Source: an uncultured Candidatus Saccharibacteria bacterium (GTDB taxonomy: Bacteria > Patescibacteriota > Saccharimonadia > Saccharimonadales > JAGQNJ01). Taken from it: 64,000 bases of DNA. Numbering within the stretch: position 1 is the stretch's first letter; the number at the start of each line of letters is the position of its first letter. A program made the position numbers and the translations under genes. This document shows, piece after piece, positions 335 through 29,101 of the stretch. The notes beneath the pieces were generated by a model. It saw only the letters and a list, made by a program, of their open reading frames with translations. It searched no databases and had not been told where the DNA came from. The stretch spans positions 3,351 to 67,350 of the forward strand of contig CAZBPY010000002.1 of NCBI GenBank assembly GCA_964493895.1. The letters are read 5' to 3'.

Positions 335-337
335 TTA

Positions 338-1876: not shown

Positions 1877-1897
1877 CCCTGCCTCCTCCAGGCTAGT

Positions 1898-3073: not shown

Positions 3074-3075
3074 TC

Positions 3076-4503
3076 TTACAGTGTATCATAAGCAGTTTGC
3101 AGTCGCTTTATGGAACGATTTTTGCCCAAAATAGCCAGTGTTTCCGCTAGTCCTGGACTAGCTGGCGCCTGAGTTATGGCAATCCTGATCAGACTAAACA
3201 GTACGGCCGGCTTTTGATCTGTTGTTTCTAACAACATGTTGAGCCGGTGCTGCAGCTTATCGGTTTCAAACTGACAGTCTTTCAAACTATCAATACTTCT
3301 TTGCAGTAAGCCAGCCAAATCATCTTTGTCCAGCTTTTTGAGCTGTTTGTTGGTCTCGATTAATTCACTTTGTACCGGCAAATCATCGGTGAAAAAGAAC
3401 CAAGTTAGTTCGGGCAGCTCGGCCAAATACTTGAGACGCTCTTGTACCGAGGCCAGGACTTTTTTTCGATATTCTTCATCATAATCACCTGCTTGTTTGG
3501 GCCAATAATCGGCTGCCAACTCAAACAGGTTTTCTAAAGGCAGCTGACGAATAAAATGGCCGTTGACCCACAAAAGGTGGCGTTCTTCAAAACGAGCCCC
3601 GCTTTTGCCTATTCGGTCCAGTGAAAACTTGGCGATTAACTCGTCTTTGGTGAAAACTTCTTGTTCGGTGCCGTCATTCCAGCCAAGTGTGGCTAAAAAG
3701 CTCATCATGGCTTCCGGCAAAAACCCTTGGCGGGCATAGTCCAAGATATCTTTGGCGCCATCGCGTTTGCCGAGCTTTTTGTTGCCCTGGGGTCCCAGGA
3801 TATGCGGCACGGTAGCAAAAATCGGTCTGTCCAAACCGAAGGCTTCATACAGGTTCAGATAATTTGGCATGCTGGCCAAAAATTCTTGCCCGCGAATAAT
3901 GTGAGTGATTTCCATCTCGGAGTCGTCAACGATATGAGCAAAATTGTACGTAGGATATCCATCAGACTTCATAAGAACAAAGTCATCAATAACTTCGGGA
4001 CCTGCCTGCATCGACCCCATTACAACATCATCCCACTGATAGGCTTTAGGGTCGGACTTAAAGCGCAGAGGCTGGCTGCCGTCCCACTTCGGCGGGTTGC
4101 TTGGCCGATGGTTGCGGTACAAAAACGGCTTTTTATCATTCTGAGCCTGTTCGCGGAAAGCTTGAACTTCCTGCGGTGAATAAGGATCGGCATAAGCCCG
4201 GCCGCTGTCGATCAGTTTCTGGGTCCATTTTTTGTAGATATCCAGTCGCTCACTCTGCTTGTAAGGATTGTGCAAACCGCCCTTATCCGGTCCTTCGTCC
4301 CAATCAATTCCCAACCAATTTAGTGAATCGATGATGTGCTGTCCAGATCCTTCTACTTCGCGGCTCTTGTCGGTATCTTCCAGTCGCAGAATGAATTGCC
4401 CGGTGTTTTGCCGAGCTACCAACCAGGCAAACAGGGCCGTGCGAACGCCGCCGACATGTATATAGCCCGTCGGACTGGGCGCAAAACGCGTTCTAACTTT
4501 CAT
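3076..4503 (-). CDS. gltX: glutamate--tRNA ligase
   Basis: 475 aa. Class I HIGH region RFAPSPTGYIHVGG, KMSKS-like KLGKRDG, and GluRS-like sequence over the full length. Confidence 0.95.
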   Translation of the reverse strand: MKVRTRFAPSPTGYIHVGGVRTALFAWLVARQNTGQFILRLEDTDKSREVEGSGQHIIDSLNWLGIDWDEGPDKGGLHNPYKQSERLDIYKKWTQKLIDSGRAYADPYSPQEVQAFREQAQNDKKPFLYRNHRPSNPPKWDGSQPLRFKSDPKAYQWDDVVMGSMQAGPEVIDDFVLMKSDGYPTYNFAHIVDDSEMEITHIIRGQEFLASMPNYLNLYEAFGLDRPIFATVPHILGPQGNKKLGKRDGAKDILDYARQGFLPEAMMSFLATLGWNDGTEQEVFTKDELIAKFSLDRIGKSGARFEERHLLWVNGHFIRQLPLENLFELAADYWPKQAGDYDEEYRKKVLASVQERLKYLAELPELTWFFFTDDLPVQSELIETNKQLKKLDKDDLAGLLQRSIDSLKDCQFETDKLQHRLNMLLETTDQKPAVLFSLIRIAITQAPASPGLAETLAILGKNRSIKRLQTAYDTL

Positions 4504-4534
4504 GACCTCTATTGTAACAAATTACTCGACCAAC

Positions 4535-5683
4535 TTAGGTGCTGGTGGCGATACGCAAGATTTGCTCGCTGCTAAGACGGGAGTTGCCTTCTATTTGGTA
4601 CCAAACGCCGCCGTTCACCCAGGTGGCGTTGGAGCCGTCGTAGATGTAGATTGTGCGTCCGCCGGCTTCGTATTTTTGGTAAGTTTTGTCATTGGCTTCT
4701 AGATAGTTCTCGGCTAAGGCTTGGCTGTTCCAGTTGGAAGCCTGCTGGACGATTTTGAACTGACGATCATCACTATTGGAATGGAAGCTAATAGTTACCT
4801 TTCCAGGACTGTAAGTGACCAGTTTGTCTTGGCTAAAGCCGGCCGGTTGGTAGCCGGGTTGATGAGCGCTAAAACCGGCCCGAGACGAGGCTAGCCGCAT
4901 ACTTAAATTAGGCATGTTTTGATAAACAAAGAATCCGGCCAGCAGCAAAAATGCCAAGGAGCCGGCGACAAAGCGCGTCGCCTTGCTGCTTAGGCCTAGG
5001 CTGTGGGACAGGCGCCGTCGATGAGGTTTTTTGGCTTTGGCGACGGCTTCGTGGGATCGGGCCTTTTTCAGGGCATCGGTGACCAATTTTTCAGCTGGAG
5101 TCAGTCCAGTCACTGGTGTTGGCTTGTGGTGAGCCGGGCGATGGTGATCTGTCTTGGCCTGAGCTGAAACCGCCCGCAACGAAGCTGATTTTTTAGGCGC
5201 TTGGCTATGGGTTGTTGGTTGATGTGATGAAGGGTGTTGACCGAAACGTTTGATCTGGCTGCTTTTCTGGATGGCCTTGGCTCTTTCTAGGCGCTGAGTG
5301 GCGCGTTGATTAAGTACAGCCTGAGCTGGCTTTTGTTTAACCGGATGATGTGGCTGCGGCACTGCTTGGCGCATTAAAGTGGCCGAGCGTTGAGGTTTGT
5401 GAGCTCGGGCCGGGGTTGGCTTATGACTAGCCGAGCGCCGACCAGTTGGTGCTAGTGATCGAGCTGGCTTAGGTTTGGTAGCGTGACTAGCCGGCTTGGT
5501 GTGTCCGGCCGATCGTTTGGATTTGTGGCTCCGGACAACGCTATCCATGACCAAGCCTTTTTTCCTGCGGACTGTTGGCTTGGTGGCTGATATAGGCACA
5601 GATTTAGTCCGGTCATGGATTAGTTTACCGGTGACGGCGTCGTAGAGCTTACCATTTAAAACTATGCTGTTTTGATGACCCAC
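4535..5683 (-). CDS. hypothetical membrane protein with basic disordered N-half and small extracytoplasmic C-domain
   Basis: 382-aa ORF. N-half is K/R/H/P-rich and low complexity, followed by one TM helix (FVAGSLAFLLLAGFFVY) and a ~120-aa C-domain that may be DUF4367-like. Family assignment is uncertain. Confidence 0.55.
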   Translation of the reverse strand: MGHQNSIVLNGKLYDAVTGKLIHDRTKSVPISATKPTVRRKKGLVMDSVVRSHKSKRSAGHTKPASHATKPKPARSLAPTGRRSASHKPTPARAHKPQRSATLMRQAVPQPHHPVKQKPAQAVLNQRATQRLERAKAIQKSSQIKRFGQHPSSHQPTTHSQAPKKSASLRAVSAQAKTDHHRPAHHKPTPVTGLTPAEKLVTDALKKARSHEAVAKAKKPHRRRLSHSLGLSSKATRFVAGSLAFLLLAGFFVYQNMPNLSMRLASSRAGFSAHQPGYQPAGFSQDKLVTYSPGKVTISFHSNSDDRQFKIVQQASNWNSQALAENYLEANDKTYQKYEAGGRTIYIYDGSNATWVNGGVWYQIEGNSRLSSEQILRIATST

Positions 5684-10545: not shown

Positions 10546-11336
10546 TTTAACTCGATACTAATCGGACAATGATCGCTGCCCATCACATCAGGATGGATTT
10601 TGGCTGATTTAATCAGTGATTTTAATTGTGGCGAAGCCAACCAATAGTCAATCCGCCAGCCAACGTTGCGCTCGCGGGCTTTGGCGAAGTGCGACCACCA
10701 GGTATAGTGCCCGTTACCTTTAGTAAATAGTCGAAACGTATCAACAAAGCCGGCATCGATAAATTTCTGAAATCCTTCTCGTTCTTCGTCGGTAAAACCC
10801 TTCTTGCCAATATTCGGTTTCGGCCGAGCCAAATCATCTTCGGTATGAGCCACATTCAAATCGCCGCACGCCAGCACTGGCTTATCCTTCTGCAGTCTTT
10901 CAAGATAAGCTAAAAACGCCGGATCCCACTGTTTGTGGCGCAGCTCAACTCTGCTTAAATCATCTTTAGCATTTGGTGTGTAAACCGTGACTACCCAAAA
11001 ATCATCATACTCCGCGGCCATCACCCGGCCTTCGTCATTAGGGTCACCATAAACATCGCCAGTCACTTTGTACTTCTTGATAATATCTTGCGGAAAGCCA
11101 TTAACAACCCGGATTGGCTTAATTTTGGTGAAAATCGCCGTACCACTGTAGCCTTTTTTGACGGCCGAATTCCAGAATTCGGTGTACTGAGGCAAATCAA
11201 CCTCCGATTGATCATGATTAGCCTTGGTTTCTTGCAGGCACAAGATATCCGGATCATGTTCTTTGACAAATTTTTGCAGAGCACCCTTGTTCCAAACGGC
11301 GCGGATGCCGTTGACATTCCAGCTGTACAACTTCAT
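10542..11336 (-). CDS. xth: exodeoxyribonuclease III
   Basis: 264 aa. MKLYSWNVNGIRA, LCLQETK and C-terminal SDHCPISIEL are typical of Xth/APE1 family endonucleases. There is a 4-nt overlap with the downstream HAD gene. Confidence 0.92.
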   Translation of the reverse strand: MKLYSWNVNGIRAVWNKGALQKFVKEHDPDILCLQETKANHDQSEVDLPQYTEFWNSAVKKGYSGTAIFTKIKPIRVVNGFPQDIIKKYKVTGDVYGDPNDEGRVMAAEYDDFWVVTVYTPNAKDDLSRVELRHKQWDPAFLAYLERLQKDKPVLACGDLNVAHTEDDLARPKPNIGKKGFTDEEREGFQKFIDAGFVDTFRLFTKGNGHYTWWSHFAKARERNVGWRIDYWLASPQLKSLIKSAKIHPDVMGSDHCPISIELK

Positions 11337-11372: not shown

Positions 11373-12131
11373 CTATGGGCTTTCGCTAACCCAGTATGAG
11401 GCGCTTTCACCGTTTATGAGTAAGAGCCTAAGGCGGGTTGTCAGGCCCATTACTTTCCGGGCAGCAGCGGCATTGGCGGGATCTAAATCTTGCCTCCATC
11501 TTTTGAAGTATTTAGCCAGCTCCAACCAGCCATTCTTACCGTCGGCATCTCCTATTACGGCGCAATGTCTGGCTGCACACAAGGCGTTAAGAGCCGAGTA
11601 GTAGACATTACGGCCGGGACTTACCAGTAGCTCATGTGCCTGCCTATAATTTAGCTCGGCCTGGGCAACAACTGGAGATCGTGGTTCTTCTACCGCTACT
11701 AGGGTGCCCATCCGTGCTAGTAAGCCATAGGAAGCGCCTAGTTCTGACAGTAACGCATTCCAAGACTGATCAGTATAAAAATCTTCGTTATAAACTTCGC
11801 CCTCGACAAACTGAGCTTTGAATAACCGGACAGCTTCAGTTTGCCTATCGTGAAGCCGTATAACAGTGCCGGTTTCATGATAATCCTGCCATGCCTGTTG
11901 AGCCTCGCCAAAGACATGTTCACGTTGAATGCGATGAAGATGTAGTCCTCTCGAAGGCTGGTGATCGCCGCCGATGCTTCCGTAATATTCCTCTATTTCT
12001 TGGGTGGCATTGTCTAGAACCTCCAAGCCCCGAGCGCGAGAACTGGGTTGGTTGATTAGCCTAACAGCGCGCTCGAGCAAATTTTCAGCTCTCGAGTGAA
12101 CACTAATCTCATAGGCTTCGGGATTTGACAT
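11373..12131 (-). CDS. hypothetical protein (soluble, helical-looking orphan)
   Basis: 252-aa uninterrupted ORF filling the gap between xth and tRNA-Ser. No motif recognised. Confidence 0.5.
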   Translation of the reverse strand: MSNPEAYEISVHSRAENLLERAVRLINQPSSRARGLEVLDNATQEIEEYYGSIGGDHQPSRGLHLHRIQREHVFGEAQQAWQDYHETGTVIRLHDRQTEAVRLFKAQFVEGEVYNEDFYTDQSWNALLSELGASYGLLARMGTLVAVEEPRSPVVAQAELNYRQAHELLVSPGRNVYYSALNALCAARHCAVIGDADGKNGWLELAKYFKRWRQDLDPANAAAARKVMGLTTRLRLLLINGESASYWVSESP

Positions 12132-12439: not shown

Positions 12440-13309
12440 ATGTCGTTAATTGAGATTCATCAGGTCAGTAAATTGTATGGTTTTGGCGAAGCCGCGACTA
12501 TCGCCCTTGATGAAATCGATTTTACGGTTGAGAAGAACGAATTCATTGCCATTATGGGCCCTAGCGGCTCGGGAAAGACTACTCTGCTTAACATCATTGG
12601 CCTGTTGGATACGCCGACTCATGGTGATTTCAAGCTGAATGGTCGCAGTACTGACAAGTTGCGCTCTCGCGGCCGAGCTAAGATTCGCCGCGATACCATT
12701 GGCTTTGTATTCCAAGCCTTCAATTTGTTACCGGAGTTGACAGTTCTAGAAAATGTCGCCCTACCCCTGGCTTACCGAGGGCTGACACCAGCCCGCCGCC
12801 TAAAACGAGCCAGCGAGATGCTGGACCGCGTTGGCTTGTTGGACCGCGAATACTTCTATCCTGCCCAGTTGTCAGGCGGTCAAGCTCAACGAGCAGCCAT
12901 TGCCCGGGCTCTAATTAACAATCCAAGTCTGATCATTGCGGACGAGCCAACTGGCAATCTTGACTCAGAGGCCAGTCGTCTGGTCATGGAACTGCTGAGC
13001 GAAATTCATAAAGCCGGCAACACAGTGCTTATGGTGACACATAATCCGGCGCTGACTCGCTATGCCAGCCGCGTCGTCTACATGCACGACGGGGTGATCA
13101 TCCATGATGAGAAGAGTAAAATTGGCGACATACCAGGTATTTTGCAGCGTAGCATGTATTTTGTCAGTCGAAAAACTGCCGAAGACGACGCGGCTGGCGT
13201 CTCAGCTTTAATGAAGGCTATGCCTGACAAAGACGGGCCAAAGAAATCAAAACGAAAACGACGCAAGGCCCCCCGCAAGCGTAACAAGAAAAAGGTTAAA
13301 AAGTCATGA
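12440..13309 (+). CDS. ABC transporter ATP-binding protein (MacB/LolD-type) with Lys-rich C-terminal tail
   Basis: 289 aa. Walker A GPSGSGKTT, signature LSGGQAQR, Walker B LIIADEPT. The tail reads KDGPKKSKRKRRKAPRKRNKKKVKKS. There is a 4-nt overlap with the permease gene. Confidence 0.9.
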   Translation: MSLIEIHQVSKLYGFGEAATIALDEIDFTVEKNEFIAIMGPSGSGKTTLLNIIGLLDTPTHGDFKLNGRSTDKLRSRGRAKIRRDTIGFVFQAFNLLPELTVLENVALPLAYRGLTPARRLKRASEMLDRVGLLDREYFYPAQLSGGQAQRAAIARALINNPSLIIADEPTGNLDSEASRLVMELLSEIHKAGNTVLMVTHNPALTRYASRVVYMHDGVIIHDEKSKIGDIPGILQRSMYFVSRKTAEDDAAGVSALMKAMPDKDGPKKSKRKRRKAPRKRNKKKVKKS

Positions 13310-21163: not shown

Positions 21164-21189
21164 GTCCAGAACTTTTTTGCTGTTCTGAC
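21164..21189. repeat. hairpin GTCCAGAAC-N9-GTTCTGAC, related to the stems at 24870 and 26525
   Basis: The stem sequence is shared with the two terminator hairpins of the tRNA-Asn region. The flanks indicate inverted orientation relative to those copies. Confidence 0.6.
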
Positions 21190-21242
21190 TTTATACTGAA
21201 TCAAATGAAGCTAATTTTCGTGTATAGGTCTATACTGGTAGT

Positions 21243-22603
21243 ATGACTGATACTAAACGTTTGGTGCTTTGGATTTGTATTCTGGCGTCGTTTGTGCCGT
21301 TTCTTGATGGCTCTGTAGTGACCGTGGCGCTGCCGGCAATCACCCGCGATCTAGGTGGAGGCTTCGTGCTACAACAGTGGGTTGTCAATGCTTACGCTAT
21401 CACGCTGGGCGCGTTTATGTTGATAGCTGGGTCACTGGCTGACCTCTACGGGCGTCAGCGGATTATGAGGTATGGGTTGATTTTGTTTGGCGTGACATCG
21501 GTGTTGTGCGCTGTGGCTCCGACAGGAGGATTTCTGATTTTCGCCCGCGGCGCCCAGGGTCTGGCTGGCGCGATGTTGGTTCCCAGCTCATTGGCGCTCA
21601 TCATGGCTTATTTCAAGAAGACAGGGGCTGGCAAGGCTATCGGCAGCTGGACGGCCTGGACGGGGATGGCATTTATCATTGGTCCTTTGGTCGGTGGTAT
21701 GTTGGTCGATGTTGCGTCATGGCGGATGGTATTTGCCATTAACATCATTCCGATCGCCATAAACCTGTACATGTTGTCACGGCTTGATTTTGCGGAAGAG
21801 CTGCAATTAAAGGTAAGCCTAGATATGACTGGGGCATTGCTGGGTGCTGTGGGGCTGGGCGGAGTCGTATATGGCCTAATTGAGCAGTCGCGATTGGGGT
21901 GGGCCGATCCGTCGTTTTTGGTTCGATTATTGTCGGTGTAGTCGCGCTGGCTGGTTTTATCTGGCACGAGCGGCGCATCAAGCAACCCATGTTGCCACTT
22001 GGCCTTTTTCGAGTGCGAAATTTTTGGGTTGGTAACGTGGCGTCATTCGCTATATACGCCGGGCTGGCACTGGCAACCTTTGCTATTTCTATCTTTGTTC
22101 AGCAGGTTGGCGGTTACACTGCCTTCCAGGCCGGATTGGCGCTGCTGCCTATAACTATGATAATGCTTTTCTTGTCGTCACGCTTTGGGGAATGGGCTGG
22201 GCGCGTCGGGCCGCGGATGTTTATGACAGCAGGTCCATTGATTGCTGCCGCTGGATTTATGACCATGTATTTTGTCGATAAATCGGCTAAGTACTGGCAA
22301 CTCCTGCCAGGAATTTTGTTACTTGGTCTTGGGTTATCGGTGACGGTCGCACCGCTGACGACAGCGATTCTCGGCGCCATTAGCGATCAGCAATCCGGGA
22401 TCGCCTCGGCGATCAACAATGCCGTTACGCGTATAGCTGGGCTCATTGCCATAGCTGCGGTTGGTTCGCTGGTCGGTCAAACGCTCGGTCTGCCGGGCTT
22501 TCGGTCTATCGTGTTGGTCATGACCGGATTGATGGTAGTAGGGGGTGTTGTTTCAGCGATTGGAATCGTAAACCATCCCCCAAAATCTCACAAACCGACG
22601 TAA
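21243..22603 (+). pseudogene. MFS transporter (DHA2/EmrB-like) split by a single frameshift
   Basis: ORFs 21243..21941 and 21899..22603 are the N and C halves of one MFS protein. Adding one T to the T5 run at 21915-21919 gives ..LGWADPSFFGSIIVGVVALAGFIWHERR.. and a single ORF of about 453 aa. Confidence 0.8.
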
Positions 22604-22859
22604 TAGGCCTCCACTCGGCTGGTGCTTTTATACATTTCCAGTGCTTGGGGGTAGTTTTTGTAAAGACTCTTCCACCACTGGCGGTACGTCAAACATGACT
22701 CTCGGGGTCTTGGCGCGCTGTCTTCGGTCAGTTAGTAGTTTTTAGATTGGCTGCACTTTCCCGTTAGCGCTACTGCTCCCCACCGCTTATTGTGTCCGCC
22801 AGAACTTTTTTGCTATGGCTCCATATAGCAGCCATGAGCCTCTAAGATATAATGAGACT

Positions 22860-23435
22860 ATGAAATTAATATACTTTGCAACATCAAATAAGGAAAAAAT
22901 GCAAATTGCTCAAACTATCTGCGCAGAAGCAGGCTTAACGGTTAAGCCAGTAGCTTTGGACATCGACGAAATTCAAGGCGAGGATCCCGAGGTGATCGTA
23001 CGAGATAAGGCGAGGCGGGCTCATGAACAGCTTGGGATGCCTGTAGTAGTCAGTGATGATACATGGGATATCCCGTCGCTGAAGGGATTTCCTGGTGCCT
23101 ACATGAAATCAATTAACTATTGGTTTAGGCCGGTTGATTTCTTGAGACTTATGGATGGAATTGAAGATAGGCGCATTATTTTGCATCAGTATCTAGCATA
23201 TACGGATGGCAATATGACAGAAGTTTTCAGAAATGACGTTGCAGGTGAAATAGCTAACGAAGCACGTGGCAAAAGCGAAAAGTCACCAAATATGACCATT
23301 ACTGTGCTTGATTCTGACAACGGTAAAACCATTGCCGAAGTACTTGACCAAGACGAAGACGCAGTGATTGCCCGTTATAAAGACCGACCTGATGCATGGC
23401 ACGGTTTTGTTAAATGGTACAAAAATATCCAATAG
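22860..23435 (+). CDS. non-canonical purine NTP pyrophosphatase (Ham1/ITPase family)
   Basis: Start moved to the ATG at 22860 (MKLIYFATSNKEKM). DIDEIQGEDPE and SDDTWDIPSLKGFPGAYMK are family-typical. TATAAT at 22848-22853 lies 6 nt upstream. Confidence 0.75.
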   Translation: MKLIYFATSNKEKMQIAQTICAEAGLTVKPVALDIDEIQGEDPEVIVRDKARRAHEQLGMPVVVSDDTWDIPSLKGFPGAYMKSINYWFRPVDFLRLMDGIEDRRIILHQYLAYTDGNMTEVFRNDVAGEIANEARGKSEKSPNMTITVLDSDNGKTIAEVLDQDEDAVIARYKDRPDAWHGFVKWYKNIQ

Positions 23436-23577
23436 CGTGAATACTTGCTGGATAGCCAATAAAATATATACTCTTGGCTCAGCATACCAGCCATGAATCC
23501 GACAACAGAGGTGAAGGACAAAAATTAGATACGAACATTGATCCTATATAATATTAGTATAAAAAGGAGCGAGTACG

Positions 23578-23997
23578 ATGAAGACATCTCTACACAGCTA
23601 CATTAGTTTTAATGGCAATGCGTCTGAAGCAATTGAATTTTACCGATCGGTTTTTGACGGAGAGGTAACCAGCAATACTTTTGGTGATTTTGCAGAGAGT
23701 ATGCCAAGTGCGCCAGAGGACAAAGATAAAATAATGCATGCGTTCATCAAAAACGATAAAGGCGTGGAATTTATGCTATCAGACATGCCAAGCAGTATGA
23801 CTTACTCTGATGGTCAAAGAGTAACCCTATGTCTTAACGGCGAAGACGAAGTGACCTTACGCGTGTATTGGGACAGGCTCACTGTTGATGGCAAGATTGA
23901 TGTGCCTTTTGAAAAAGCCCCATGGGGCGATATTTATGGTGCCTTGACCGACAAATTCGGCGTCAATTGGATGATCAACGTCGGCAAAGCCGAGTGA
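23578..23997 (+). CDS. VOC/glyoxalase-fold protein (PhnB/YjdN-like)
   Basis: 139 aa. C-terminal APWGDIYGALTDKFGVNWMIN is typical of the PhnB-like 3-demethylubiquinone methyltransferase-domain family. SD AAGGAG lies upstream. Confidence 0.7.
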   Translation: MKTSLHSYISFNGNASEAIEFYRSVFDGEVTSNTFGDFAESMPSAPEDKDKIMHAFIKNDKGVEFMLSDMPSSMTYSDGQRVTLCLNGEDEVTLRVYWDRLTVDGKIDVPFEKAPWGDIYGALTDKFGVNWMINVGKAE

Positions 23998-24048
23998 TCA
24001 TTGATGTCGATCAATCTAGGAGCTCGGTTTATCCTTAAGCTTTTTGGG

Positions 24049-24096
24049 TTGGCTCACAACGATAGAGAAAGTTACAGCTGCTATAAAGCACGATTT
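24049..24096. repeat. 48-bp cassette-junction element, copy B
   Basis: TTGGCTCACAACGATAGAGAAAGTTACAGCTGCTATAAAGCACGATTT. It lies between the convergent VOC and racemase genes, 11 nt from the racemase stop. Confidence 0.85.
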
Positions 24097-24107
24097 TGTA
24101 ATCTAAA

Positions 24108-24797
24108 TTATGTAGTTATTTCTCGAACTGTCGCATCTGCAAGGATTTTCATAGTATCGAACATAGGTACTTGCTGACTGCTTGGAAGTAGTAGCTGTAG
24201 ATCGGTGCATGCCAAAGCAATGCAGTCCACACCCTGGGCTGCAAGACCATATGCTACTTCAAGAATGTCTTCTCTATCCTTATTAAGATGCTGGCCTTCA
24301 ATTAGGCGCTGGATGATCTTATCCATCTTCGCTTTCTGTAATTCATCAGGTGTAACGAATTCGATAGTGGCTTCTGCCAGTTTTCTTTCGTAGACGTGGT
24401 TTGCAACAGTTGCCGATGTGGAAATAAGACCAATTTTCGTGAACCCATTGGCCTTAAGGTGAGAGATTGTTTCCTCGACGATACTTAACACTGGAATGTT
24501 GACGGCTTCTCTAATTTCATTGATAAAAACATGTAGAGAGTTGCATGGCATTACTAGAAAATCTACGCCTGTTTTCTCTAGTCTTTGAGCTTCCGTTACT
24601 AAGAAAGGTATGTACCGCTCTTTGCCAGTGTTGCTTTCGATTAGATCGCGTTCGACTTCGAGTAATAAGGGTACGCTCGAAACGACAACCAAAGGGCGTT
24701 GAGGAAGGCCAAGTTTCTGACAGCCAAAAATAATTTCAAGGTAAAACTCTGCTGTTGTTTCAGGCCCGAGGCCACCAATAACTCCAACTGATTTCAT
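24108..24797 (-). CDS. aspartate/glutamate racemase family protein
   Basis: 229 aa. MKSVGVIGGLGPETT, MPCNSLH and LACTDL supply the two catalytic Cys regions of the Asp/Glu racemase fold. Confidence 0.85.
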   Translation of the reverse strand: MKSVGVIGGLGPETTAEFYLEIIFGCQKLGLPQRPLVVVSSVPLLLEVERDLIESNTGKERYIPFLVTEAQRLEKTGVDFLVMPCNSLHVFINEIREAVNIPVLSIVEETISHLKANGFTKIGLISTSATVANHVYERKLAEATIEFVTPDELQKAKMDKIIQRLIEGQHLNKDREDILEVAYGLAAQGVDCIALACTDLQLLLPSSQQVPMFDTMKILADATVREITT

Positions 24798-24869
24798 AAT
24801 ACTAATAGTAGCGCATTTTCTCTGTAAATGGATACTAGATTTGGCTTCAACTCTACTCTGGGTATGAAA

Positions 24870-24898
24870 AAGTCAGAACCTAATATCAGTTCTGACTT
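24870..24898 (-). terminator. rho-independent terminator-like hairpin (duplicate of the tRNA-Asn terminator)
   Basis: The minus strand reads AAGTCAGAAC-tgatattag-GTTCTGACTT followed by TTTCAT. It is part of the 73-bp duplicated module 24846-24918. Confidence 0.5.
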
Positions 24899-24911
24899 CA
24901 ACTTGTTTGGC

Positions 24912-24957
24912 TTGGCTTACAACGATAGAGGAAGTCATAACTGCGATCAAGCAGGAT
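24912..24957. repeat. 48-bp cassette-junction element, copy C
   Basis: TTGGCTTACAACGATAGAGGAAGTCATAACTGCGATCAAGCAGGAT. It ends 3 nt before the stop of ORF 24961..25323. Confidence 0.85.
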
Positions 24958-24960
24958 ACT

Positions 24961-25323
24961 CTAGCTTTCGTGAGTTGACCTTGCTTCATTCACTGCTGCT
25001 CTAATATCTTCTGGGCTGATTCCGAATTTACGAGGAATAGGAATCGTGAGTTCGATTTCAGTTCCTGTGGATATAGTGCCCAGGACCCGCATTAACGTTA
25101 TGCCTATGATTTTGCCCTCTCTGTCAAAGCCTACTACATGACCTTCAGGCGTCCATTTGCCCGAACCGCCACCTTCATTCGGAGTTGAATTACTGAGATA
25201 TAAAGTATCATGCCCCTCTAGGTAATCAACTTCGGAAAAGGAAAAAGGCCCAACATGAAAAAGTCCATCATCTTCTGATCTGATTAGTCTTAAAGAAGGT
25301 ATTTCACCACCAAAATCTACCAT
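24961..25323 (-). CDS. hypothetical protein, possibly DUF2283-like
   Basis: 120-aa ORF. HDTLYLSN...GHVVGFDREGKIIGITLM weakly resembles DUF2283. Confidence 0.45.
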   Translation of the reverse strand: MVDFGGEIPSLRLIRSEDDGLFHVGPFSFSEVDYLEGHDTLYLSNSTPNEGGGSGKWTPEGHVVGFDREGKIIGITLMRVLGTISTGTEIELTIPIPRKFGISPEDIRAAVNEARSTHES

Positions 25324-25360
25324 ACAGTAAAAATATCACAAAAGTGGTATTTAGTCAAAC

Positions 25361-25408
25361 TTGGCTCACAATAATAGAGGAAGTCATAACTGTAATTAAG
25401 CAAGATTT
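25361..25408. repeat. 48-bp cassette-junction element, copy D
   Basis: TTGGCTCACAATAATAGAGGAAGTCATAACTGTAATTAAGCAAGATTT. It lies 3' of ORF 25432..25782. Confidence 0.85.
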
Positions 25409-25431
25409 GCTGGGAAACAAATACATAGAAA

Positions 25432-25782
25432 CTATTGTTGGGAAGGCATGACGGATACCTCTAAAGTGCCAATCACGTCTGAAAGTAATTCAGATGCGTC
25501 AGGATGGCTTGGTCTAAGAATCTCCCAGTAAGCAGAACTAAGTTGTTGGCATTCAGCCGTTTCACATCCCCCAAGATGTATGCCTACTTCTAAATCTATC
25601 GGAAATCTTGGCTCAGGATCATTGGCGACGTACATACTTCTAGCCATGATAAACCACTGCTGACGTGCTTCATCGCATGGTATCTCAGTACGAATCTCGC
25701 CAGCTTCAATTGCGTCAAGGCTTCGCTCAATTTGTTCTTCACGCTTAGCTCCCCAGCCGACAAATGGGTCCTGTTCACTCAT
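25432..25782 (-). CDS. hypothetical protein (116 aa)
   Basis: Start moved to the ATG at 25782 (MSEQDPFVGW). The track start at 25818 is TTG and lies 5 nt from repeat copy E (25823-25870). No family recognised. Confidence 0.45.
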   Translation of the reverse strand: MSEQDPFVGWGAKREEQIERSLDAIEAGEIRTEIPCDEARQQWFIMARSMYVANDPEPRFPIDLEVGIHLGGCETAECQQLSSAYWEILRPSHPDASELLSDVIGTLEVSVMPSQQ

Positions 25783-25822
25783 AAAACAAAAAATATCAAC
25801 ATTAGTGATATTTTGCAAATGC

Positions 25823-25870
25823 TTGGCTCAGCACAATAGAGGAAGTTATAACTGTAATAAAGCGAGATTT
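25823..25870. repeat. 48-bp cassette-junction element, copy E
   Basis: TTGGCTCAGCACAATAGAGGAAGTTATAACTGTAATAAAGCGAGATTT. It lies 3' of the RibD_C-like gene. Confidence 0.85.
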
Positions 25871-25930: not shown

Positions 25931-26473
25931 CTATTTTACAACTTGGAAACGTAAATGCGTTTCACCAGCAAACGCTGATGTGTCTAATCTTTTAAGCTGG
26001 ATCTTCTTTCCCAGTCCCTCGAACAATGAAATTCCCTCGCCAAGTAACAAAGGTTCTACATCAAGTATGATTTCATCAACTAGTCCTAGCTTCAAGCACT
26101 GCCGTGAGATACTACCGCCAAGTAAACTGACATTTTTATCGCCAGCGGCCACTTTTGCTTTTTCAACTGCTAGCTTTATATCGTCCACGACGAAATTATA
26201 TGTTACACCATCCTTCTCTACTGGCTCATGAGCTTCGTGAGTCATGAGAAATACAGGAACTTTTACAGTGCCTCCATATGGCACGCCATCATCTTCGATA
26301 GTATTTGTTTTGTTTGATCCACCGACTATGGCTCCAATTTCGGCTGTTACTTTATTGACTACTGCATAATCTTCGTCAACCGCTTCGAGATCCTGCATCC
26401 AGCTCATGTCGCCATCGACACCTGCCATAAATCCATCGAGTGTTATTGTTGCGTGAATAAATACTTTTCCCAT
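25931..26473 (-). CDS. dihydrofolate reductase-like (RibD C-terminal domain) family protein
   Basis: 180 aa. MGKVFIHATITLDGFMAG, LLGGSISRQ and DEIILDVEPLLLGEG are typical of RibD_C family reductases. Confidence 0.8.
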   Translation of the reverse strand: MGKVFIHATITLDGFMAGVDGDMSWMQDLEAVDEDYAVVNKVTAEIGAIVGGSNKTNTIEDDGVPYGGTVKVPVFLMTHEAHEPVEKDGVTYNFVVDDIKLAVEKAKVAAGDKNVSLLGGSISRQCLKLGLVDEIILDVEPLLLGEGISLFEGLGKKIQLKRLDTSAFAGETHLRFQVVK

Positions 26474-26524
26474 AGAACTATCATAGCAAAAGAGGCGGTT
26501 TCAATTCTACTTAGGGTATATAAA

Positions 26525-26554
26525 AAGTCAGAACCATCTTCACAGTTCTGACTT
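26525..26554 (-). terminator. rho-independent terminator of tRNA-Asn
   Basis: The minus strand reads AAGTCAGAAC-tgtgaagatg-GTTCTGACTT followed by TTTATAT, starting 15 nt after the tRNA 3' end. Confidence 0.6.
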
Positions 26555-26568
26555 TGTCTGTTCCGGCT

Positions 26569-26643
26569 TGGCTCCCGGGGCCGGACTCGAACCGGCAACC
26601 TTGAAGTTAACAGCTTCCTGCTCCACCATTGAGCTACCCGGGA
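26569..26643 (-). tRNA. tRNA-Asn (anticodon GTT), encoded CCA
   Basis: Reverse complement reads TCCCGGGTAGCTCAATGGTGGAGCAGGAAGCTGTTAACTTCAAGGTTGCCGGTTCGAGTCCGGCCCCGGGAGCCA. Cloverleaf fits, with anticodon loop CTGTTAA. Confidence 0.9.
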
Positions 26644-26691: not shown

Positions 26692-27288
26692 CTAAATTAG
26701 GGTTACTAGGCGATCTAGGACGCGTTGGTAATGACGATCAATTCCATTTGGAGTGAATTCGTCACTATGCACGAAACGGATTCCACCCATCTCGCGAGCC
26801 TCCCTTTTCTCCAGAGAGGCTACTTCTTCCCAGCTAGCCAACGATATGCCTTCATCGATCACATAAGTGGCATTGCCGAAAAGTGGGTTTTCGGCAACCG
26901 CGATGGTGCGCTGATCATCCCTGATCGTCAAGACCATATAGGGCAGCACTGTGGCTAGGGACCCAGGACGTCCACGCATCAGCTCTACTTGATAACCGCT
27001 AGACCTTAGGACATCGCCAAGTTCTATCAGACCGGCTAATCTTTCCCAGTTGACTTTGTGTGAATGGGTACTACCAACGTTCGTTTCAAAATCGCGTTTA
27101 ATGTCATCGACTCGTGTTCCCGGAGGAAAGATTCTTACATCTAAGAACTTCGCCCCTTTTAGTAATTCAATTGGAGCCGATGGGGTACCGGGTTCATTAC
27201 TGGGTTCTTCCTCGAGCGGTGTCTCGAGCCGCGGGTTCGGCCTCCGACACCGGTTCTGGTTCAATAGCAGGAAGTTCTTGAACTGCAT
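26692..27288 (-). CDS. hypothetical protein (198 aa; start uncertain)
   Basis: Long ORF whose first 92 nt overlap the end of the upstream 634-aa ORF in another frame. I saw no SD before the ATG at 27288. No family recognised. Confidence 0.45.
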   Translation of the reverse strand: MQFKNFLLLNQNRCRRPNPRLETPLEEEPSNEPGTPSAPIELLKGAKFLDVRIFPPGTRVDDIKRDFETNVGSTHSHKVNWERLAGLIELGDVLRSSGYQVELMRGRPGSLATVLPYMVLTIRDDQRTIAVAENPLFGNATYVIDEGISLASWEEVASLEKREAREMGGIRFVHSDEFTPNGIDRHYQRVLDRLVTLI

Positions 27289-29101
27289 TAGCTAACAGGT
27301 AATGCTTGAGAATATTGCGAATTTCACTTGGCACGTTGGGATTGCGTGAAGCCAGCTCGGCATTGGCAGCCAGCCATTCATAGGCCGTCACAAAATTGCG
27401 CATTAGTTGCAATGTCTCGCGATGTTGGTTGGGAAGTTGCTGTATTGATTCCAGCAGCGCACTTATCTCTTGGTAGGTTCCATCCATTGCTTCGCGCACC
27501 AGCTTCGGTTGATCCTGAATGAACCTTTCGCCCAGACGATGTAAGAATGAGCTTACTGACTTGGCGATCTCCCTATCATCAAGACCAGTGATCTGGATTC
27601 GCCCGTCAGCGCCCTTAATACCTCTACGCAAACTATTGGTGAACGGCAGACCAGGCCCTTCTCGTGCTCGGAGCTGTTTGTTGCCCATAAAATAGTCTAG
27701 GGCAGCATGCTGCAGTTCTGCCATCTGCTCAAGCTCAAAAGCCGGTTTTCTAGGATGTCCATTAATAGACCTATCGCGTTTGGCTGCTTGTTTGATTTCC
27801 TCATGCAGCGTCATGGCGCCTACATGTTTGATGCGCTGCCTAAGGTCTCGAATTCGAGCTCCATACTCTTCCCTTCTCTCTTCTCTAAGTGGTTGGGTTG
27901 CCTGACGCTCGGCCTGGCCTAATCTGCGGCTGTAAGTATGGATAAAGTCTTCGATCTCCAGAAGATAAACCATTTGCTCGGGTGTGGGTTCTGGTGTATC
28001 TTGTACAATCTGATTGAAACGCTCTTTAAGGGCTACTAGGTGGGATAATTCTATTCCTACCACTGACGCCTGTATAGGCGCAATCATTAATTGAAAGTCG
28101 GTGTTAAAGTCTTTAAATTGGGCTTTAGCTAATGCGAAGCTCATAGGGGTGAGCACAGCTCCACGCATGATACTCAAGATCTGATTTTGCGCTTCTTTCT
28201 GCTTAGCCTGACGGCCCTTGAAAAAGCTGTCATGATGTTTGGCGCGAGCAATAAGCTCGGCCTCGTAACTTATGCCTTGGATAAGTTGGGCAAGCCGTTT
28301 CGGACTATGCTCGGTTTCATAATAGTGACTTAGATTATCGCTTAAAAGACACAAGGCCTGAGCGACATAATTATCGTCATACTCTGAAACATCCCTTACC
28401 TTTATTGATTTCATCAATTTTTGTACGTCAGCGTGCTCAAGGAACCTAGCTAAGGCAACCACTCTCATACCTGTCAAGATTTTCATCTCAGCTTCGCTGG
28501 GGATACGAGCCGCCACTTTTCGTGCGTCACCTACCATGCTGTCAATCTTGGTAACTAACTCCTCGATTGCTCCCATAGTCTCTACAGGGCCGTTAAAATC
28601 CTCTACCTTGGGTTGAGTCGGAATTTCGCTGGCGCCTTCCAAAGTCCCTATTTCGCCGATATCTGCATCTTTTAGGCGGTCTAAAATTTCAGGTAAGGCT
28701 AAGATCAGCCCCCGCTTATCTGGGCGAACCTTGAACTGTGTAATGGCGCCAGCTGCTGTCTCTTGGCTAGGGTCTCTGGCTACAATACTGGTGCTTTGTG
28801 AGGCATAAGTTAGACATCCACCAATTACTGCTAGGTCGCTTAATGTTTCCATAGGCAAATGGTTATAAAGTGGTGCATATACGGTTGAACGCTCTGACTC
28901 TCCTTCTACACGGGCAGCCAAAGTCGCCATAGCTTCCTTTGAGCCAAGCAGGCTCTCCGAAGCCTGTTCGCACATTGTGATGGTTTCTTGATGGGGAGTG
29001 ATATCCTCATTGGCATCAGGAGCCAAAAATACATCTTTAAATGGGTTCTGAGGTGAAAGCTCCGGCACTGGCGGACCTTGTGGACCAAGTGTAAGTGACA
29101 T
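27197..29101 (-). CDS. hypothetical protein (634 aa, helical-looking orphan)
   Basis: Uninterrupted 1.9-kb ORF beginning 38 nt after the smpB stop. No TM segment, no nucleotide-binding or catalytic motif recognised, and a Pro/Glu-rich C-terminal linker. Confidence 0.6.
   Translation of the reverse strand: MSLTLGPQGPPVPELSPQNPFKDVFLAPDANEDITPHQETITMCEQASESLLGSKEAMATLAARVEGESERSTVYAPLYNHLPMETLSDLAVIGGCLTYASQSTSIVARDPSQETAAGAITQFKVRPDKRGLILALPEILDRLKDADIGEIGTLEGASEIPTQPKVEDFNGPVETMGAIEELVTKIDSMVGDARKVAARIPSEAEMKILTGMRVVALARFLEHADVQKLMKSIKVRDVSEYDDNYVAQALCLLSDNLSHYYETEHSPKRLAQLIQGISYEAELIARAKHHDSFFKGRQAKQKEAQNQILSIMRGAVLTPMSFALAKAQFKDFNTDFQLMIAPIQASVVGIELSHLVALKERFNQIVQDTPEPTPEQMVYLLEIEDFIHTYSRRLGQAERQATQPLREERREEYGARIRDLRQRIKHVGAMTLHEEIKQAAKRDRSINGHPRKPAFELEQMAELQHAALDYFMGNKQLRAREGPGLPFTNSLRRGIKGADGRIQITGLDDREIAKSVSSFLHRLGERFIQDQPKLVREAMDGTYQEISALLESIQQLPNQHRETLQLMRNFVTAYEWLAANAELASRNPNVPSEIRNILKHYLLANAVQELPAIEPEPVSEAEPAARDTARGRTQ

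What the first reader, a model, noticed from the sequence alone, without database searches (positions are those of the whole stretch)
24049..25870. Family of four ~48-bp conserved elements placed at the 3' end of cassette ORFs
Copies lie at 24049-24096, 24912-24957, 25361-25408 and 25823-25870. Their consensus is TTGGCTCACAAYRATAGAGGAAGTYATAACTGYRATHAAGCRNGAT(TT). By-eye pairwise identity is about 80-85%; for example, copies C and D differ at 7 of 46 positions. Each copy has a sharp left boundary at TTGGCTC and sequences to its left are unrelated. On the gene strand (minus), each element begins within 3-60 nt after a stop codon and ends in GAGCCAA(G), the same ending as tRNA-Asn. This ORF-plus-3'-recombination-site layout is formally like integron cassettes with attC. 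However, I see no attC-style R''/R' inverted-repeat symmetry. The middle of the element (minus strand CAGTTATGACTTC) weakly resembles the tRNA-Asn anticodon arm (CTGTTAACTTC). The elements could therefore be decayed copies of a tRNA-derived att site lacking the T-arm.
Basis: seen in the sequence. Interest (0 to 1): 0.72.

Follow-up and report, generated by a model that had tools for sequence, protein, structure and literature searches.

The report
Serine-recombinase cassette array at tRNA-Asn
The four repeats are recombination-site arms, each a copy of the last codons of a large serine recombinase gene, marking the ends of small gene cassettes stacked behind the tRNA-Asn gene of a Saccharibacteria genome; this resembles an integron but appears to use a different enzyme and site.

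Summary
Four co-oriented ~48-nt copies (75-88% identical, unrelated flanks, 0 expected by chance) lie downstream of tRNA-Asn and share its last bases, GAGCCAA.

They are not tRNA-derived, not attC-like and not an RNA. On the opposite strand every copy encodes WLTTIEEVITAIKQDL..stop. In related loci this is the C-terminal tail of a large serine recombinase (LSR) whose gene runs across its own attachment site.

Full-length LSRs in Saccharibacteria nearly all end in a tail encoded by the reverse complement of tRNA-Asn, which is the integrated junction. The window's elements are the matching far-end arms ('P1').

I found 194 copies in 136 loci. They are always co-oriented and usually downstream of tRNA-Asn. 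They bound 83 cassettes (median 0.9 kb, mostly one gene) carrying diverse cargo, including Fic, zeta toxin, Arr and NUDIX.

Near-identical contig pairs differ by single LSR-less units inserted exactly at the core. Shared cassettes have different neighbours, with homology breaking at the core. The arm-core-next-cassette junction is a ~53-bp dyad centred on the core, and the arm carries a T-loop-like motif 5 bp further out than in the tRNA.

The window has no LSR. How arrays grow is unresolved.

Verdict: new variant of a known kind.

The parts
26569..26643 (-). tRNA-Asn(GTT), the anchor of the array. Its 3' end plus one base, GAGCCA+A (+ strand TTGGCTC, 26568-26574), is the shared core.
   Evidence: ARAGORN. 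Rfam tRNA 63.7 bits. Sequence.
26497..26567 (-). Left-end module of cassette 1. It holds a terminator hairpin AAGTCAGAAC..GTTCTGACTT at fixed spacing from the core, then a promoter-like CTGACT-16-TAGAAT. The same module follows copy B and follows the tRNA or P1 elements in many other genomes.
   Evidence: (D4, I5).
25931..26473 (-). Cassette 1 ORF, RibD_C family (180 aa).
   Evidence: Pfam E=6.8e-14.
25823..25870 (-). P1 element copy D: arm plus core (core at 25823-25829). The + strand reads WLSTIEEVITVIKRDLTHVN*.
25432..25782 (-). Cassette 2 ORF, no Pfam match.
25361..25408 (-). P1 element copy C (core at 25361-25367). It is followed on the minus strand by promoter-like TTGACT-17-TATTTT. The same sequence follows tRNA-Asn directly in L077 and L081.
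24961..25323 (-). Cassette 3 ORF, no Pfam match (120 aa).
24912..24959 (-). P1 element copy B (core variant AAGCCAA at 24912-24918).
24846..24911 (-). Second copy of the terminator/promoter left-end module, starting cassette 4.
   Evidence: (D4).
24108..24797 (-). Cassette 4 ORF, Asp/Glu racemase. The whole cassette is shared with metagenome locus L023, and the homology ends at the core of copy A.
   Evidence: Pfam E=1.5e-38..
24049..24096 (-). P1 element copy A (core at 24049-24055).
23578..23997 (+). Cassette 5 ORF, glyoxalase/PhnB-like, opposite orientation. Shared at 95% amino-acid identity with L084, where it also follows a P1 element.
23475..23505 (-). A different arm type ending in the same core (minus strand ..CATGGCTGGTATGCT|GAGCCAA). 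Homology with L125 starts exactly at this core.
   Evidence: (D10).
22860..23435 (+). Cassette 6 ORF, Ham1-family NTP pyrophosphatase. In L125 (73% amino-acid identity) the same cassette follows a P1 element instead.
22815..22845 (-). Last junction of the array: second copy of the other arm type with core variant GAGCCAT. GC content returns to about 50% beyond it.
   Evidence: (D10).

Best explanation
The four elements are 'P arms'. Each is the half of an attachment site that sits at the far end of DNA inserted at the CCA end of tRNA-Asn by a large serine recombinase (LSR).

In this Saccharibacteria LSR family the gene reads across its own attachment site. The crossover lies in the codons N-W-L, where TGG is the reverse complement of the tRNA's CCA. 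The DNA beyond the crossover therefore encodes the enzyme's last 16-30 residues.

Integration fuses the LSR body to the antisense of the tRNA. It leaves the old tail-coding arm plus the 7-bp core GAGCCAA at the other end of the insert.

In the window, six units (0.4-0.8 kb, one gene each) have been stacked behind the tRNA. Four end in the P1 arm and two in another arm type.

What is shown: the identity of the element, the shared core, the breakpoints at the core, and strain-level gain or loss of single units.

What is inferred: that an LSR supplied in trans moves the small LSR-less units. Its proposed substrate is the ~53-bp dyad formed by arm + core + the start of the next unit. The order of events that builds an array is also inferred.
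For: 1. Coding signature. All 192 readable copies translate on the opposite strand to WLTTIEEVIT(A/V)IK(Q/R)D(L/F). Replacements are conservative (K/R, D/E, I/V, E/Q) and a stop follows 18-23 codons after W. Third codon positions are least conserved: 1.13 bits against 1.46 and 1.52.

2. The element ends a recombinase ORF. In L093, L037, L092 and L136 it is the end of an ORF whose homologues have Resolvase + Recombinase + Zn_ribbon_recom domains.

3. Tails diverge at NWL. All homologues share ..KPF-x9-NWL and then split into tail classes. 43 of 54 full-length proteins carry a tail that is the antisense of tRNA-Asn, and none carries a P1 tail.

4. Junctions. tRNA|LSR, arm|LSR, tRNA|flank and arm|flank junctions all share GAGCCAA. 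The next base segregates with the right-hand partner.

5. Intact islands. L139 and L141 read tRNA-Asn|LSR...cargo...P2 arm|terminator. The P2 arm aligns with P1 without gaps over 25 nt.

6. Context. There are 194 copies in 136 loci with no mixed orientation. 25 of 30 tRNAs detected in those loci are tRNA-Asn, upstream and on the same strand. 22 of 30 loci with at least 4 kb of upstream sequence show the tRNA or its 3' exon.

7. Mobility. L057/L125 and L099/L113 have flanks 99.5-100% identical but differ by single units of 968 and 1507 nt without an LSR, bounded by the core. Window cassettes recur with other neighbours, and homology breaks at the core.

8. Site geometry. The arm|terminator-module junction is dyad-symmetric about C4 of the core: 15 of 26 positions, against 2-11 at 30 other centres. 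A GTTNNA motif sits at -23..-18 in the P arms and at -18..-13 in the tRNA. This matches the 5-bp shift of the zinc-ribbon-domain motif between attP and attB (PMC3783163).
Against: - No LSR gene lies in the 64-kb window, so activity in this genome is unproven.
- Canonical serine integrases recombine only attP x attB, or attL x attR with a directionality factor. Integration destroys attB, so tandem arrays are not expected from the textbook reaction.
- P1 tails were seen only on truncated LSR fragments, never on a full-length gene.
- The right-hand partners of the core are heterogeneous: terminators, promoters, LSR bodies.
- The dyad and the 5-bp shift are sequence inferences, made after looking at several alignments.
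- About a quarter of loci with long upstream sequence show no tRNA-Asn within reach.
Confidence: 0.8

Rival explanations
1. Passive scars only. Each element is the leftover far end of a once full-size LSR island, and the short 'cassettes' are what remains after deletion. Nothing smaller than a whole island ever moved.
For: - LSR fragments lie inside arrays, next to P1 or P2 arms (L092, L093).
- C-terminal LSR fragments are very common: 1117 clusters match, and most of the 150 best listed are 90-270 aa.
- All full-length LSRs are in the integrated state.
Against: - Two near-identical contig pairs differ by exactly one small LSR-less unit bounded by the core.
- The left ends of units are conserved modules at fixed spacing that complete a dyad with the arm.
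- 48 of 83 bounded units carry one ORF, ending 0-60 nt before the arm.
- Decay by random deletion would not leave breakpoints exactly at the core.
Confidence: 0.15
2. An integron-like or Xer-type system: a tyrosine recombinase acts on the elements as attC- or dif-like sites.
For: The layout is ORF plus a 3' site in co-oriented arrays, and the cargo resembles integron cassettes (Arr, nucleotidyltransferase-like, toxins).
Against: - Neither strand forms a hairpin: z-scores run from -1.1 to +1.7, and the consensus fold is -0.79 kcal/mol with no covariation.
- No tyrosine-recombinase motif is seen in the window.
- The element is physically the end of a serine recombinase ORF.
Confidence: 0.03
3. 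A structured RNA, a REP-like repeat or a terminator in the 3' UTR of the cassette genes.
For: The elements lie just after stop codons and usually just before a terminator.
Against: - Nothing matches in Rfam.
- No stable fold and no covariation among 60 copies.
- Copies are confined to one array per locus.
- The substitution pattern follows codons of the opposite strand.
Confidence: 0.01
4. A functional micro-ORF: each copy encodes a small peptide on the plus strand.
For: The conservation is peptide-like and the distance to the stop codon is tightly distributed.
Against: - The conserved reading starts abruptly at the core, with unrelated upstream sequence and no conserved start codon.
- The same peptide is the C-terminus of a roughly 510-aa enzyme family.
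Confidence: 0.01

Closest known systems
Large serine integrase islands and prophages (A118/LI, Bxb1, phiC31 type) and their attL/attR junctions
   Same: - The enzyme architecture is Resolvase + Recombinase + zinc ribbon.
- There is a short common core.
- The site is about 50 bp and dyad-symmetric.
- A recognition motif sits 5 bp further out in the P-type arm than in the B-type arm.
- Intact islands of 6-10 kb are bounded by the two junctions.
   Different: - The target is the extreme 3' end of a tRNA gene. The Islander paper states that serine integrases were not known to target tRNA genes (PMC4383910).
- The ORF crosses the attachment site.
- Junction arms accumulate in arrays with very small LSR-less units, which the strict attP x attB rule does not predict.
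- There is no detectable sequence similarity to any solved structure.
Recombinase genes that span their own attP: Mx8 intP and SSV-type 'suicidal' integrases
   Same: - attP lies inside the recombinase ORF, so integration changes or splits the protein.
- The target is a tRNA gene.
- Displaced gene ends stay behind as markers of capture events (PMC6070905; PMC8371274; PMC4383910).
   Different: - Those are tyrosine recombinases.
- In SSV the split inactivates the enzyme. Here only the last 16-30 residues are swapped, and all catalytic and DNA-binding domains stay intact.
- The SSV type is described as exclusive to archaea.
Staphylococcal cassette chromosome (SCC) composite arrays (comparison from my own knowledge, not tested here)
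   Same: - Large serine recombinases are involved.
- Elements insert serially at one chromosomal site next to the 3' end of a conserved gene.
- Non-autonomous elements lacking recombinase genes sit in tandem, separated by a repeated short site.
- One homologue in the database is even named 'cassette chromosome recombinase B' by its source (P0166).
   Different: - The target is rlmH, not a tRNA.
- SCC elements are tens of kb, not about 1 kb.
- The repeated site there derives from the target gene, not from the recombinase gene.
Integrons (attI/attC gene cassettes)
   Same: - Arrays are co-oriented and consist mostly of single-gene units, each with a conserved site at its 3' end, anchored at one fixed site.
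- Cargo is highly diverse: 83 Pfam families in 92 ORFs, including Arr-ms, nucleotidyltransferase-like, Fic and zeta toxin.
   Different: - There is no IntI and no folded single-stranded attC.
- Cassettes carry their own promoter-like and terminator sequences.
- The anchor is a tRNA end.
- The associated enzyme is a serine recombinase.

Membership tests
Integron gene cassette / attC | The site folds as an imperfect hairpin (R''-L''...L'-R') in single-stranded form. | tested here: not met
   DNA folds of both strands of all four copies give -1.9 to -5.4 kcal/mol, with z-scores from -1.10 to +1.68. RNAalifold on 60 copies gives -0.79 kcal/mol, 3 invariant pairs and no covariation.
Integron gene cassette / attC | An IntI-type tyrosine recombinase and attI lie next to the array. 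| tested here: not met
   No recombinase domain is found in the ORFs flanking the array. No tyrosine- or serine-recombinase motif pair is found in 70 window ORFs. The anchor is tRNA-Asn.
Large serine recombinase attachment sites | An associated enzyme has Resolvase, Recombinase and zinc-ribbon domains. | tested here: met
   Met in related loci, not in the window. P0121 and P0148 pass all three Pfam cut-offs. ORFs ending in the element are homologous to their C-terminal part. There is no LSR in the window.
Large serine recombinase attachment sites | All four junction types share a short common core. | tested here: met
   GAGCCAA is present at tRNA|LSR, arm|LSR, tRNA|flank and arm|flank junctions and at both ends of strain-level inserts.
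Large serine recombinase attachment sites | The site is about 40-50 bp and imperfectly dyad-symmetric, with the outer recognition motif 5 bp closer to the centre in attB than in attP. | tested here: inconclusive
   The dyad is centred on C4 of the core: 15 of 26 positions against 2-11 elsewhere. GTTNNA sits at -23..-18 in P arms and -18..-13 in the tRNA. The rule comes from PMC3783163. This is a sequence inference only, and the right-hand half-sites are heterogeneous.
Large serine recombinase attachment sites | The enzyme recombines the sites. | not testable with these tools
   This needs an in vitro or in vivo recombination assay.
tRNA-fragment direct repeats of tyrosine-integrase islands (Islander signature) | A displaced copy of the 3' part of the target tRNA (typically 15 nt or more) lies at the far end. 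| tested here: not met
   P1 shares only GAGCCAA(G) with tRNA-Asn. tRNA-like arms of 17-27 nt do exist at other junctions in related loci (L057, L051, L135), but not in the four elements of the finding.
Recombinase ORF spanning attP (Mx8 / SSV type) | The crossover site lies inside the recombinase coding sequence, so the C-terminus depends on the recombination state. | tested here: met
   The tail classes after NWL are tRNA-antisense, P1, P2 and others.
Recombinase ORF spanning attP (Mx8 / SSV type) | The enzyme is a tyrosine recombinase. | tested here: not met
   The enzyme has serine-recombinase domains. An N-terminal RVS-type motif is present in 49 of 54 full-length members.
REP-like repeat / terminator / structured RNA | Copies are dispersed genome-wide or form a conserved secondary structure. 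| tested here: not met
   The only four copies in 64 kb all lie in one array. Other loci hold one co-oriented array each. Nothing matches in Rfam, and there is no structure.

The most novel reading that the evidence does not exclude
Saccharibacteria possess a gene-cassette capture platform that works like an integron but is run by a large serine recombinase.
- Single-gene units carry a complete ~53-bp dyad site when circular (P arm + GAGCCAA + left-end module).
- These units are inserted and excised at the CCA end of tRNA-Asn and at existing junctions, by an LSR acting in trans.
- The LSR's own C-terminal tail is rewritten by each event: island-encoded helix versus tRNA-antisense peptide. This could serve as a built-in record or switch of recombination state.
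Probability: 0.35. Interest if true: 0.85.

Novelty: new variant of a known kind. Interest (0 to 1): 0.68.

Why it matters
- Saccharibacteria and other candidate-phyla-radiation (CPR) bacteria have tiny genomes and few described mobile elements. A hotspot that stacks small accessory genes (drug-modifying enzymes, toxins, nucleotide-housekeeping enzymes) behind tRNA-Asn would be a main route of gene gain in them.
- A serine recombinase that targets the CCA end of a tRNA gene runs against the statement that only tyrosine integrases target tRNA genes (PMC4383910).
- A serine recombinase whose C-terminus toggles with integration state has, to my knowledge, only tyrosine-recombinase precedents (Mx8, SSV).
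- Tandem arrays are not expected from the strict attP x attB rule of serine integrases. The system could therefore reveal a relaxed or half-site-driven mode of this enzyme class, which is widely used in genome engineering.
- Saccharibacteria have only recently become genetically tractable (from my own knowledge). A short, well-defined natural landing site could be a practical tool for them.

Tried and rejected
- Structured RNA or terminator: rejected. Folds of both strands, RNAalifold on 60 copies and an Rfam search were all negative.
- attC hairpin: rejected.
- Promoter reading. On the + strand the element resembles TTGGCT-18-TATAAC. I rejected this because the consensus scan did not flag it and most adjacent ORFs point the wrong way.
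- dif/Xer site. A by-eye comparison with dif consensus sequences recalled from memory gave only a partial match to one arm. I dropped it once the LSR link appeared.
- Phage origin: a viral-contig scan with the element pattern gave 0 hits.
- Recombinase in the window: motif regexes and tblastn with four LSRs found nothing.
- Pfam on the 172-aa ORF that ends in the element gave nothing. The link to LSRs needed the homology search.
- The PDB sequence search with a full-length LSR found no relative.
- The exact-protein look-up of the window's smpB found nothing, and the racemase look-up returned only a 969-nt contig. The source genome was therefore not identified beyond 'Saccharibacteria-like' by relatives.
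- Literature searches for Saccharibacteria combined with tRNA-Asn, gene cassettes, serine recombinase or genomic island found nothing relevant.
- Array-growth pathway: I could not derive a single one. Schemes using attL x attR-type insertion, insertion at attL, or recombination between like junctions each explain only some of the observed junctions.
Full report
**1. The observation**

The four copies exist as described: 24048-24096, 24911-24959, 25360-25408 and 25822-25870. A 32-nt consensus with up to 3 mismatches finds exactly these four sites in 64 kb, against none in 100 shuffles. Pairwise identity is 75-87.5%, while the 48 nt on either side are 12-40% identical.

tRNA-Asn(GTT) lies at 26569-26643 on the minus strand. 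On that strand each element ends in GAGCCAA (AAGCCAA in copy B), the same seven bases as the tRNA's ..GAGCCA end plus the next base. The elements follow the stop codons of four minus-strand ORFs by 60, 23, 1 and 11 nt. The stretch from 23 to 26 kb has 41-43% GC against about 49% around it.

**2. What the elements are not**

- Neither strand folds better than shuffled sequence (z from -1.10 to +1.68).
- Sixty distinct copies from many loci give a consensus fold of -0.79 kcal/mol with three invariant pairs and no covariation.
- Rfam finds only the tRNA.
- The window holds no fifth copy.

This excludes an attC-type hairpin, a structured RNA, a terminator and a dispersed REP-like repeat.

**3. Distribution**

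A scan of one genome per species found the element in 15 contigs. Nearly all are labelled Saccharibacteria or Saccharimonadales, including the complete genome CP011211, and each holds 1-4 copies.

Across 136 loci, counting the window as one, there are 194 copies. No locus has copies in both orientations. 25 of the 30 tRNA genes detected in those loci are tRNA-Asn, upstream and on the same strand.

Of 30 loci with at least 4 kb of sequence upstream of the first copy, 14 show tRNA-Asn by ARAGORN. Eight more show its 3' exon. In L139 the tRNA gene is interrupted by a group I intron, which explains why ARAGORN misses some. A scan of viral contigs found nothing.

**4. The turning point**

Read on the other strand (the window's + strand), every copy translates from the core as W-L-T-T-I-E-E-V-I-T-(A/V)-I-K-(Q/R)-D-(L/F) and stops a few codons later. 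Over 192 copies:
- replacements are conservative (K/R, D/E, I/V, E/Q);
- the distance from W to the stop is 18-23 codons in most;
- third codon positions carry the least information, 1.13 bits against 1.46 and 1.52.

The centre of the element (ATAGAGGAAGTTATAAC) is conserved at third positions too. This shows a DNA-level constraint on top of the coding one.

Upstream of W the reading frame is unrelated in nearly all copies. In L093, L037, L092 and L136, however, it continues into a longer ORF. The 172-aa ORF of L093 has 108 homologues. The longer ones carry the Recombinase and Zn_ribbon_recom domains. A second search recovered full-length proteins of 505-513 aa with Resolvase, Recombinase and zinc-ribbon domains. 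These are large serine recombinases (LSRs).

**5. The recombinase gene crosses its own attachment site**

All homologues share ..KRLQLNLLKPF-x9-NWL and diverge immediately after. The main tail classes are:
- RRLDSNQRP.., RQLGSNQRP.. and PGPDSNRQP.., which are the reverse complements of tRNA-Asn genes of different lineages. The window's tRNA read this way gives WLPGPDSNRQP*.
- TTIEEVIT.., the element of the finding. I call it P1.
- xLADxLRTASxDFD..IKExL. I call it P2.

Of 54 full-length proteins, 43 have a clear tRNA-antisense tail. The other 11 end, or diverge, at or within a few residues of the W-L position. None has a P1 tail. P1 and P2 tails occur on truncated fragments. One exception is a 530-aa protein with a P2-like tail (P0292). 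TGG, the W codon, is the reverse complement of the tRNA's CCA.

Junction sequences confirm the exchange point. tRNA|LSR (L138, L139, L141), arm|LSR (L136, L093, L037), tRNA|flank and arm|flank all share GAGCCAA. The following base goes with the right-hand partner.

**6. Intact islands**

In L139 the order is smpB, tRNA-Asn, then the LSR reading into the tRNA. About 8 kb of cargo follows (a DNA methylase and a helicase-type restriction partner). The island ends with a P2 arm, GAGCCAA and a terminator. L141 is a 6.4-kb version carrying an NgoPII-type restriction-modification pair and an HTH_17 protein. The synteny smpB...tRNA-Asn matches the window.

P1 and P2 align without gaps over the 25 nt next to the core (CAGTT...TC.TCT....TTG.GAGCCAA, 14 of 25 identical). 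As peptides they align over the first 11 residues (and my reading of it). P1 is therefore a shorter member of the same arm family.

**7. Units move at the core**

- L057 and L125 are 99.5-100% identical on both sides. L057 has 968 extra nt directly after the tRNA's GAGCCAA: a hairpin, one ORF of the endonuclease/exonuclease/phosphatase family, and a tRNA-like arm ending in GAGCCAAG.
- L099 and L113 are 99.9-100% identical. L113 has 1507 extra nt directly after a P1 element, bounded by GAGCCA on both sides.
- L005 and L014 share a cassette (94% nt) and the distal flank. L005 has one more cassette-plus-element between them.
- The window's racemase cassette recurs in L023, and homology ends at the core of copy A.
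- The window's Ham1 cassette recurs in L125, and homology starts exactly at the core. There it has a P1 arm as left neighbour instead of the window's other arm type.
- The window's glyoxalase cassette recurs in L084.

None of these units contains an LSR.

**8. Anatomy of the arrays**

Between consecutive junctions I could delimit 83 units.
- The median interior is 924 nt (range 336-5067).
- 48 carry one ORF of at least 50 aa.
- 78% of ORFs point the same way as the tRNA.
- In most units the last co-oriented ORF stops 0-60 nt before the arm.

Some long units probably hide arms of other types. Ninety-two distinct ORFs of at least 60 aa, taken from the units with interiors up to 2.5 kb, hit 83 Pfam families. 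These include Fic (5), zeta-toxin / AAA_33 / chloramphenicol-phosphotransferase-like kinases (3-5), NUDIX (3), rifampin ADP-ribosyltransferase (2), aminoglycoside nucleotidyltransferase-like (2), racemase, HAD, RibD_C and HNH.

The sequence after the core is most often an intrinsic-terminator-like hairpin. One hairpin (AAGTCAGAAC..GTTCTGACTT) follows 35 P1 copies and 12 tRNA-Asn genes at an invariant spacing, and is itself followed by ..TAGAATTGAAAC. A second recurrent start is a promoter-like TTGACTAAATACCACTTTTGTGGTATTTT. It follows the tRNA in L077 and L081 and follows copy C in the window.

**9. Site geometry**

The consensus of the 35 P1|terminator-module junctions is dyad-symmetric about the fourth base of GAGCCAA. 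15 of 26 positions are symmetric, against 2-11 at 30 other centres. The symmetric pairs are GTTATAAC / GTCAGAAC at +/-16-23 and TCTAT / ATAGA at +/-7-11. The arm, the core and the start of the next unit thus form a ~53-bp site of the kind a recombinase dimer binds.

Aligned from the core, the tRNA's T-loop GTTCGA lies at -18..-13. The P arms carry GTTATA (P1), GTTCGC or GTTCGA (P2) and GTTATC (the L113 arm) at -23..-18. The tRNA-like arm of L057 has GTTCAA at -18..-13.

For the Listeria innocua prophage (LI) serine integrase, the zinc-ribbon-domain motif lies 5 bp closer to the centre in attB than in attP (PMC3783163). The same offset here fits an LSR that reads the tRNA as a B-type half-site and the element as a P-type half-site. 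This is an inference from sequence, made after inspection, and needs an experiment.

**10. The window itself**

The array runs from the tRNA (core at 26568-26574) to about 22815 and holds six one-gene units:
- RibD_C
- two unknown ORFs
- Asp/Glu racemase
- glyoxalase/PhnB-like
- Ham1

The first four end in P1. The last two are in the opposite orientation and end in another arm (..CATGGCTGSTATRYK|GAGCCA), which I did not find in any other locus. No LSR or other recombinase is detectable in the 64 kb.

**11. Mechanism and its limits**

Shown:
- the element is an LSR 3' end;
- the core is common to all junction types;
- breakpoints and recent indels sit at the core.

Inferred:
- an LSR acting in trans moves LSR-less units;
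- the arm|core|left-end dyad is the substrate.

Unresolved: how arrays grow. Textbook serine integrases join only attP with attB, and integration destroys attB (PMC3783163 abstract). Observed junctions include tRNA|terminator-module next to arm|LSR-fragment (L093, L136). That is what insertion of a circle carrying arm|module into a tRNA|LSR junction would give. The recent indels occur both at the tRNA and at an internal arm. P1 and P2 tails sit almost only on decayed LSR genes, as expected if a newer insertion separates an older LSR from the tRNA. No single scheme covers every junction.

**12. Comparison with known systems**

- The enzyme family and junction logic are those of serine-integrase islands.
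- A recombinase ORF that spans attP is known for Mx8 and for SSV-type archaeal integrases, both tyrosine recombinases.
- The Islander paper states that serine integrases were not known to target tRNA genes. I could not check later literature beyond the library searched.
- From my own knowledge, serial stacking of recombinase-less elements by a large serine recombinase is reminiscent of SCC composite islands.
- The array of small diverse cassettes is reminiscent of integrons, but the defining integron features fail.
- Searches for any description of this system in Saccharibacteria found nothing.

**13. Verdict**

The best reading is a serine-recombinase attachment-site arm marking cassette ends in a tRNA-Asn-anchored array. 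This is a new variant of a known kind. The question of active cassette exchange is open and testable.

Noticed in passing
L139:11500-11850: The tRNA-Asn gene next to an intact island is interrupted by a group I intron (Rfam Intron_gpI, 73.3 bits, 11565-11824), so ARAGORN misses it. Eight other loci show a tRNA-Asn 3' exon without a called tRNA.
   Followed up: partly
window 23475-23505 and 22815-22845: Two junctions carry the same core but a different arm (minus strand ..CATGGCTGGTATGCT|GAGCCAA and ..CATGGCTGCTATATG|GAGCCAT). On the + strand they read WLSIPAMNPTTEVKDKN* and WLHIAAMSL*. I found this arm in no other fetched locus and on no LSR tail.
   Followed up: partly
window 21243-22603: An MFS transporter gene is split into two overlapping ORFs (21243-21941 and 21899-22603). 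This suggests a frameshift, a pseudogene or an assembly error, right at the distal border of the array.
   Followed up: no
window 21167-21191 and 22800-22814: The hairpin CAGAACTTTTTTGCTGTTCTGACTT at 21167 has the same stem as the array's terminators. Its first 15 nt recur at 22800, abutting the last core, as if that junction cut a terminator in its loop.
   Followed up: no
window 26692-29101: Two ORFs (198 aa and 634 aa, overlapping by about 90 nt) lie between smpB and tRNA-Asn and have no Pfam match. The corresponding position in L009 and L012 holds unrelated ORFs, so this side of the tRNA is also variable.
   Followed up: partly
protein searches: C-terminal fragments of this LSR family (90-270 aa, lacking the catalytic domain) far outnumber full-length genes among the best 150 hits; 1117 clusters match in all. 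They are often still 60-90% identical to intact enzymes. I do not know whether they are only debris or retain a role.
   Followed up: no
L135:2455-12900: A distant full-length LSR (547 aa, tail WLRGLDSNQRPSGYT*) abuts a tRNA-Asn 3' end. Downstream lie two 17-18-nt copies of the tRNA 3' end (cores starting at 10827 and 12894) and one P1 element (12671-12718). tRNA-like and P-type arms therefore coexist in one array.
   Followed up: partly
L139, L140, L141: The intact islands carry restriction-modification systems as cargo (an N6_N4 methylase with a ResIII helicase; NgoPII with a C5 methylase). L140 and L141 also carry a small HTH_17/MerR-type protein (none was called in L139) that could be the excision factor.
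   Followed up: no
L007 (DUPE01000005.1): A contig labelled Clostridiaceae carries three P1 elements in an array typical of Saccharibacteria. It is probably a binning error in the source MAG.
   Followed up: no
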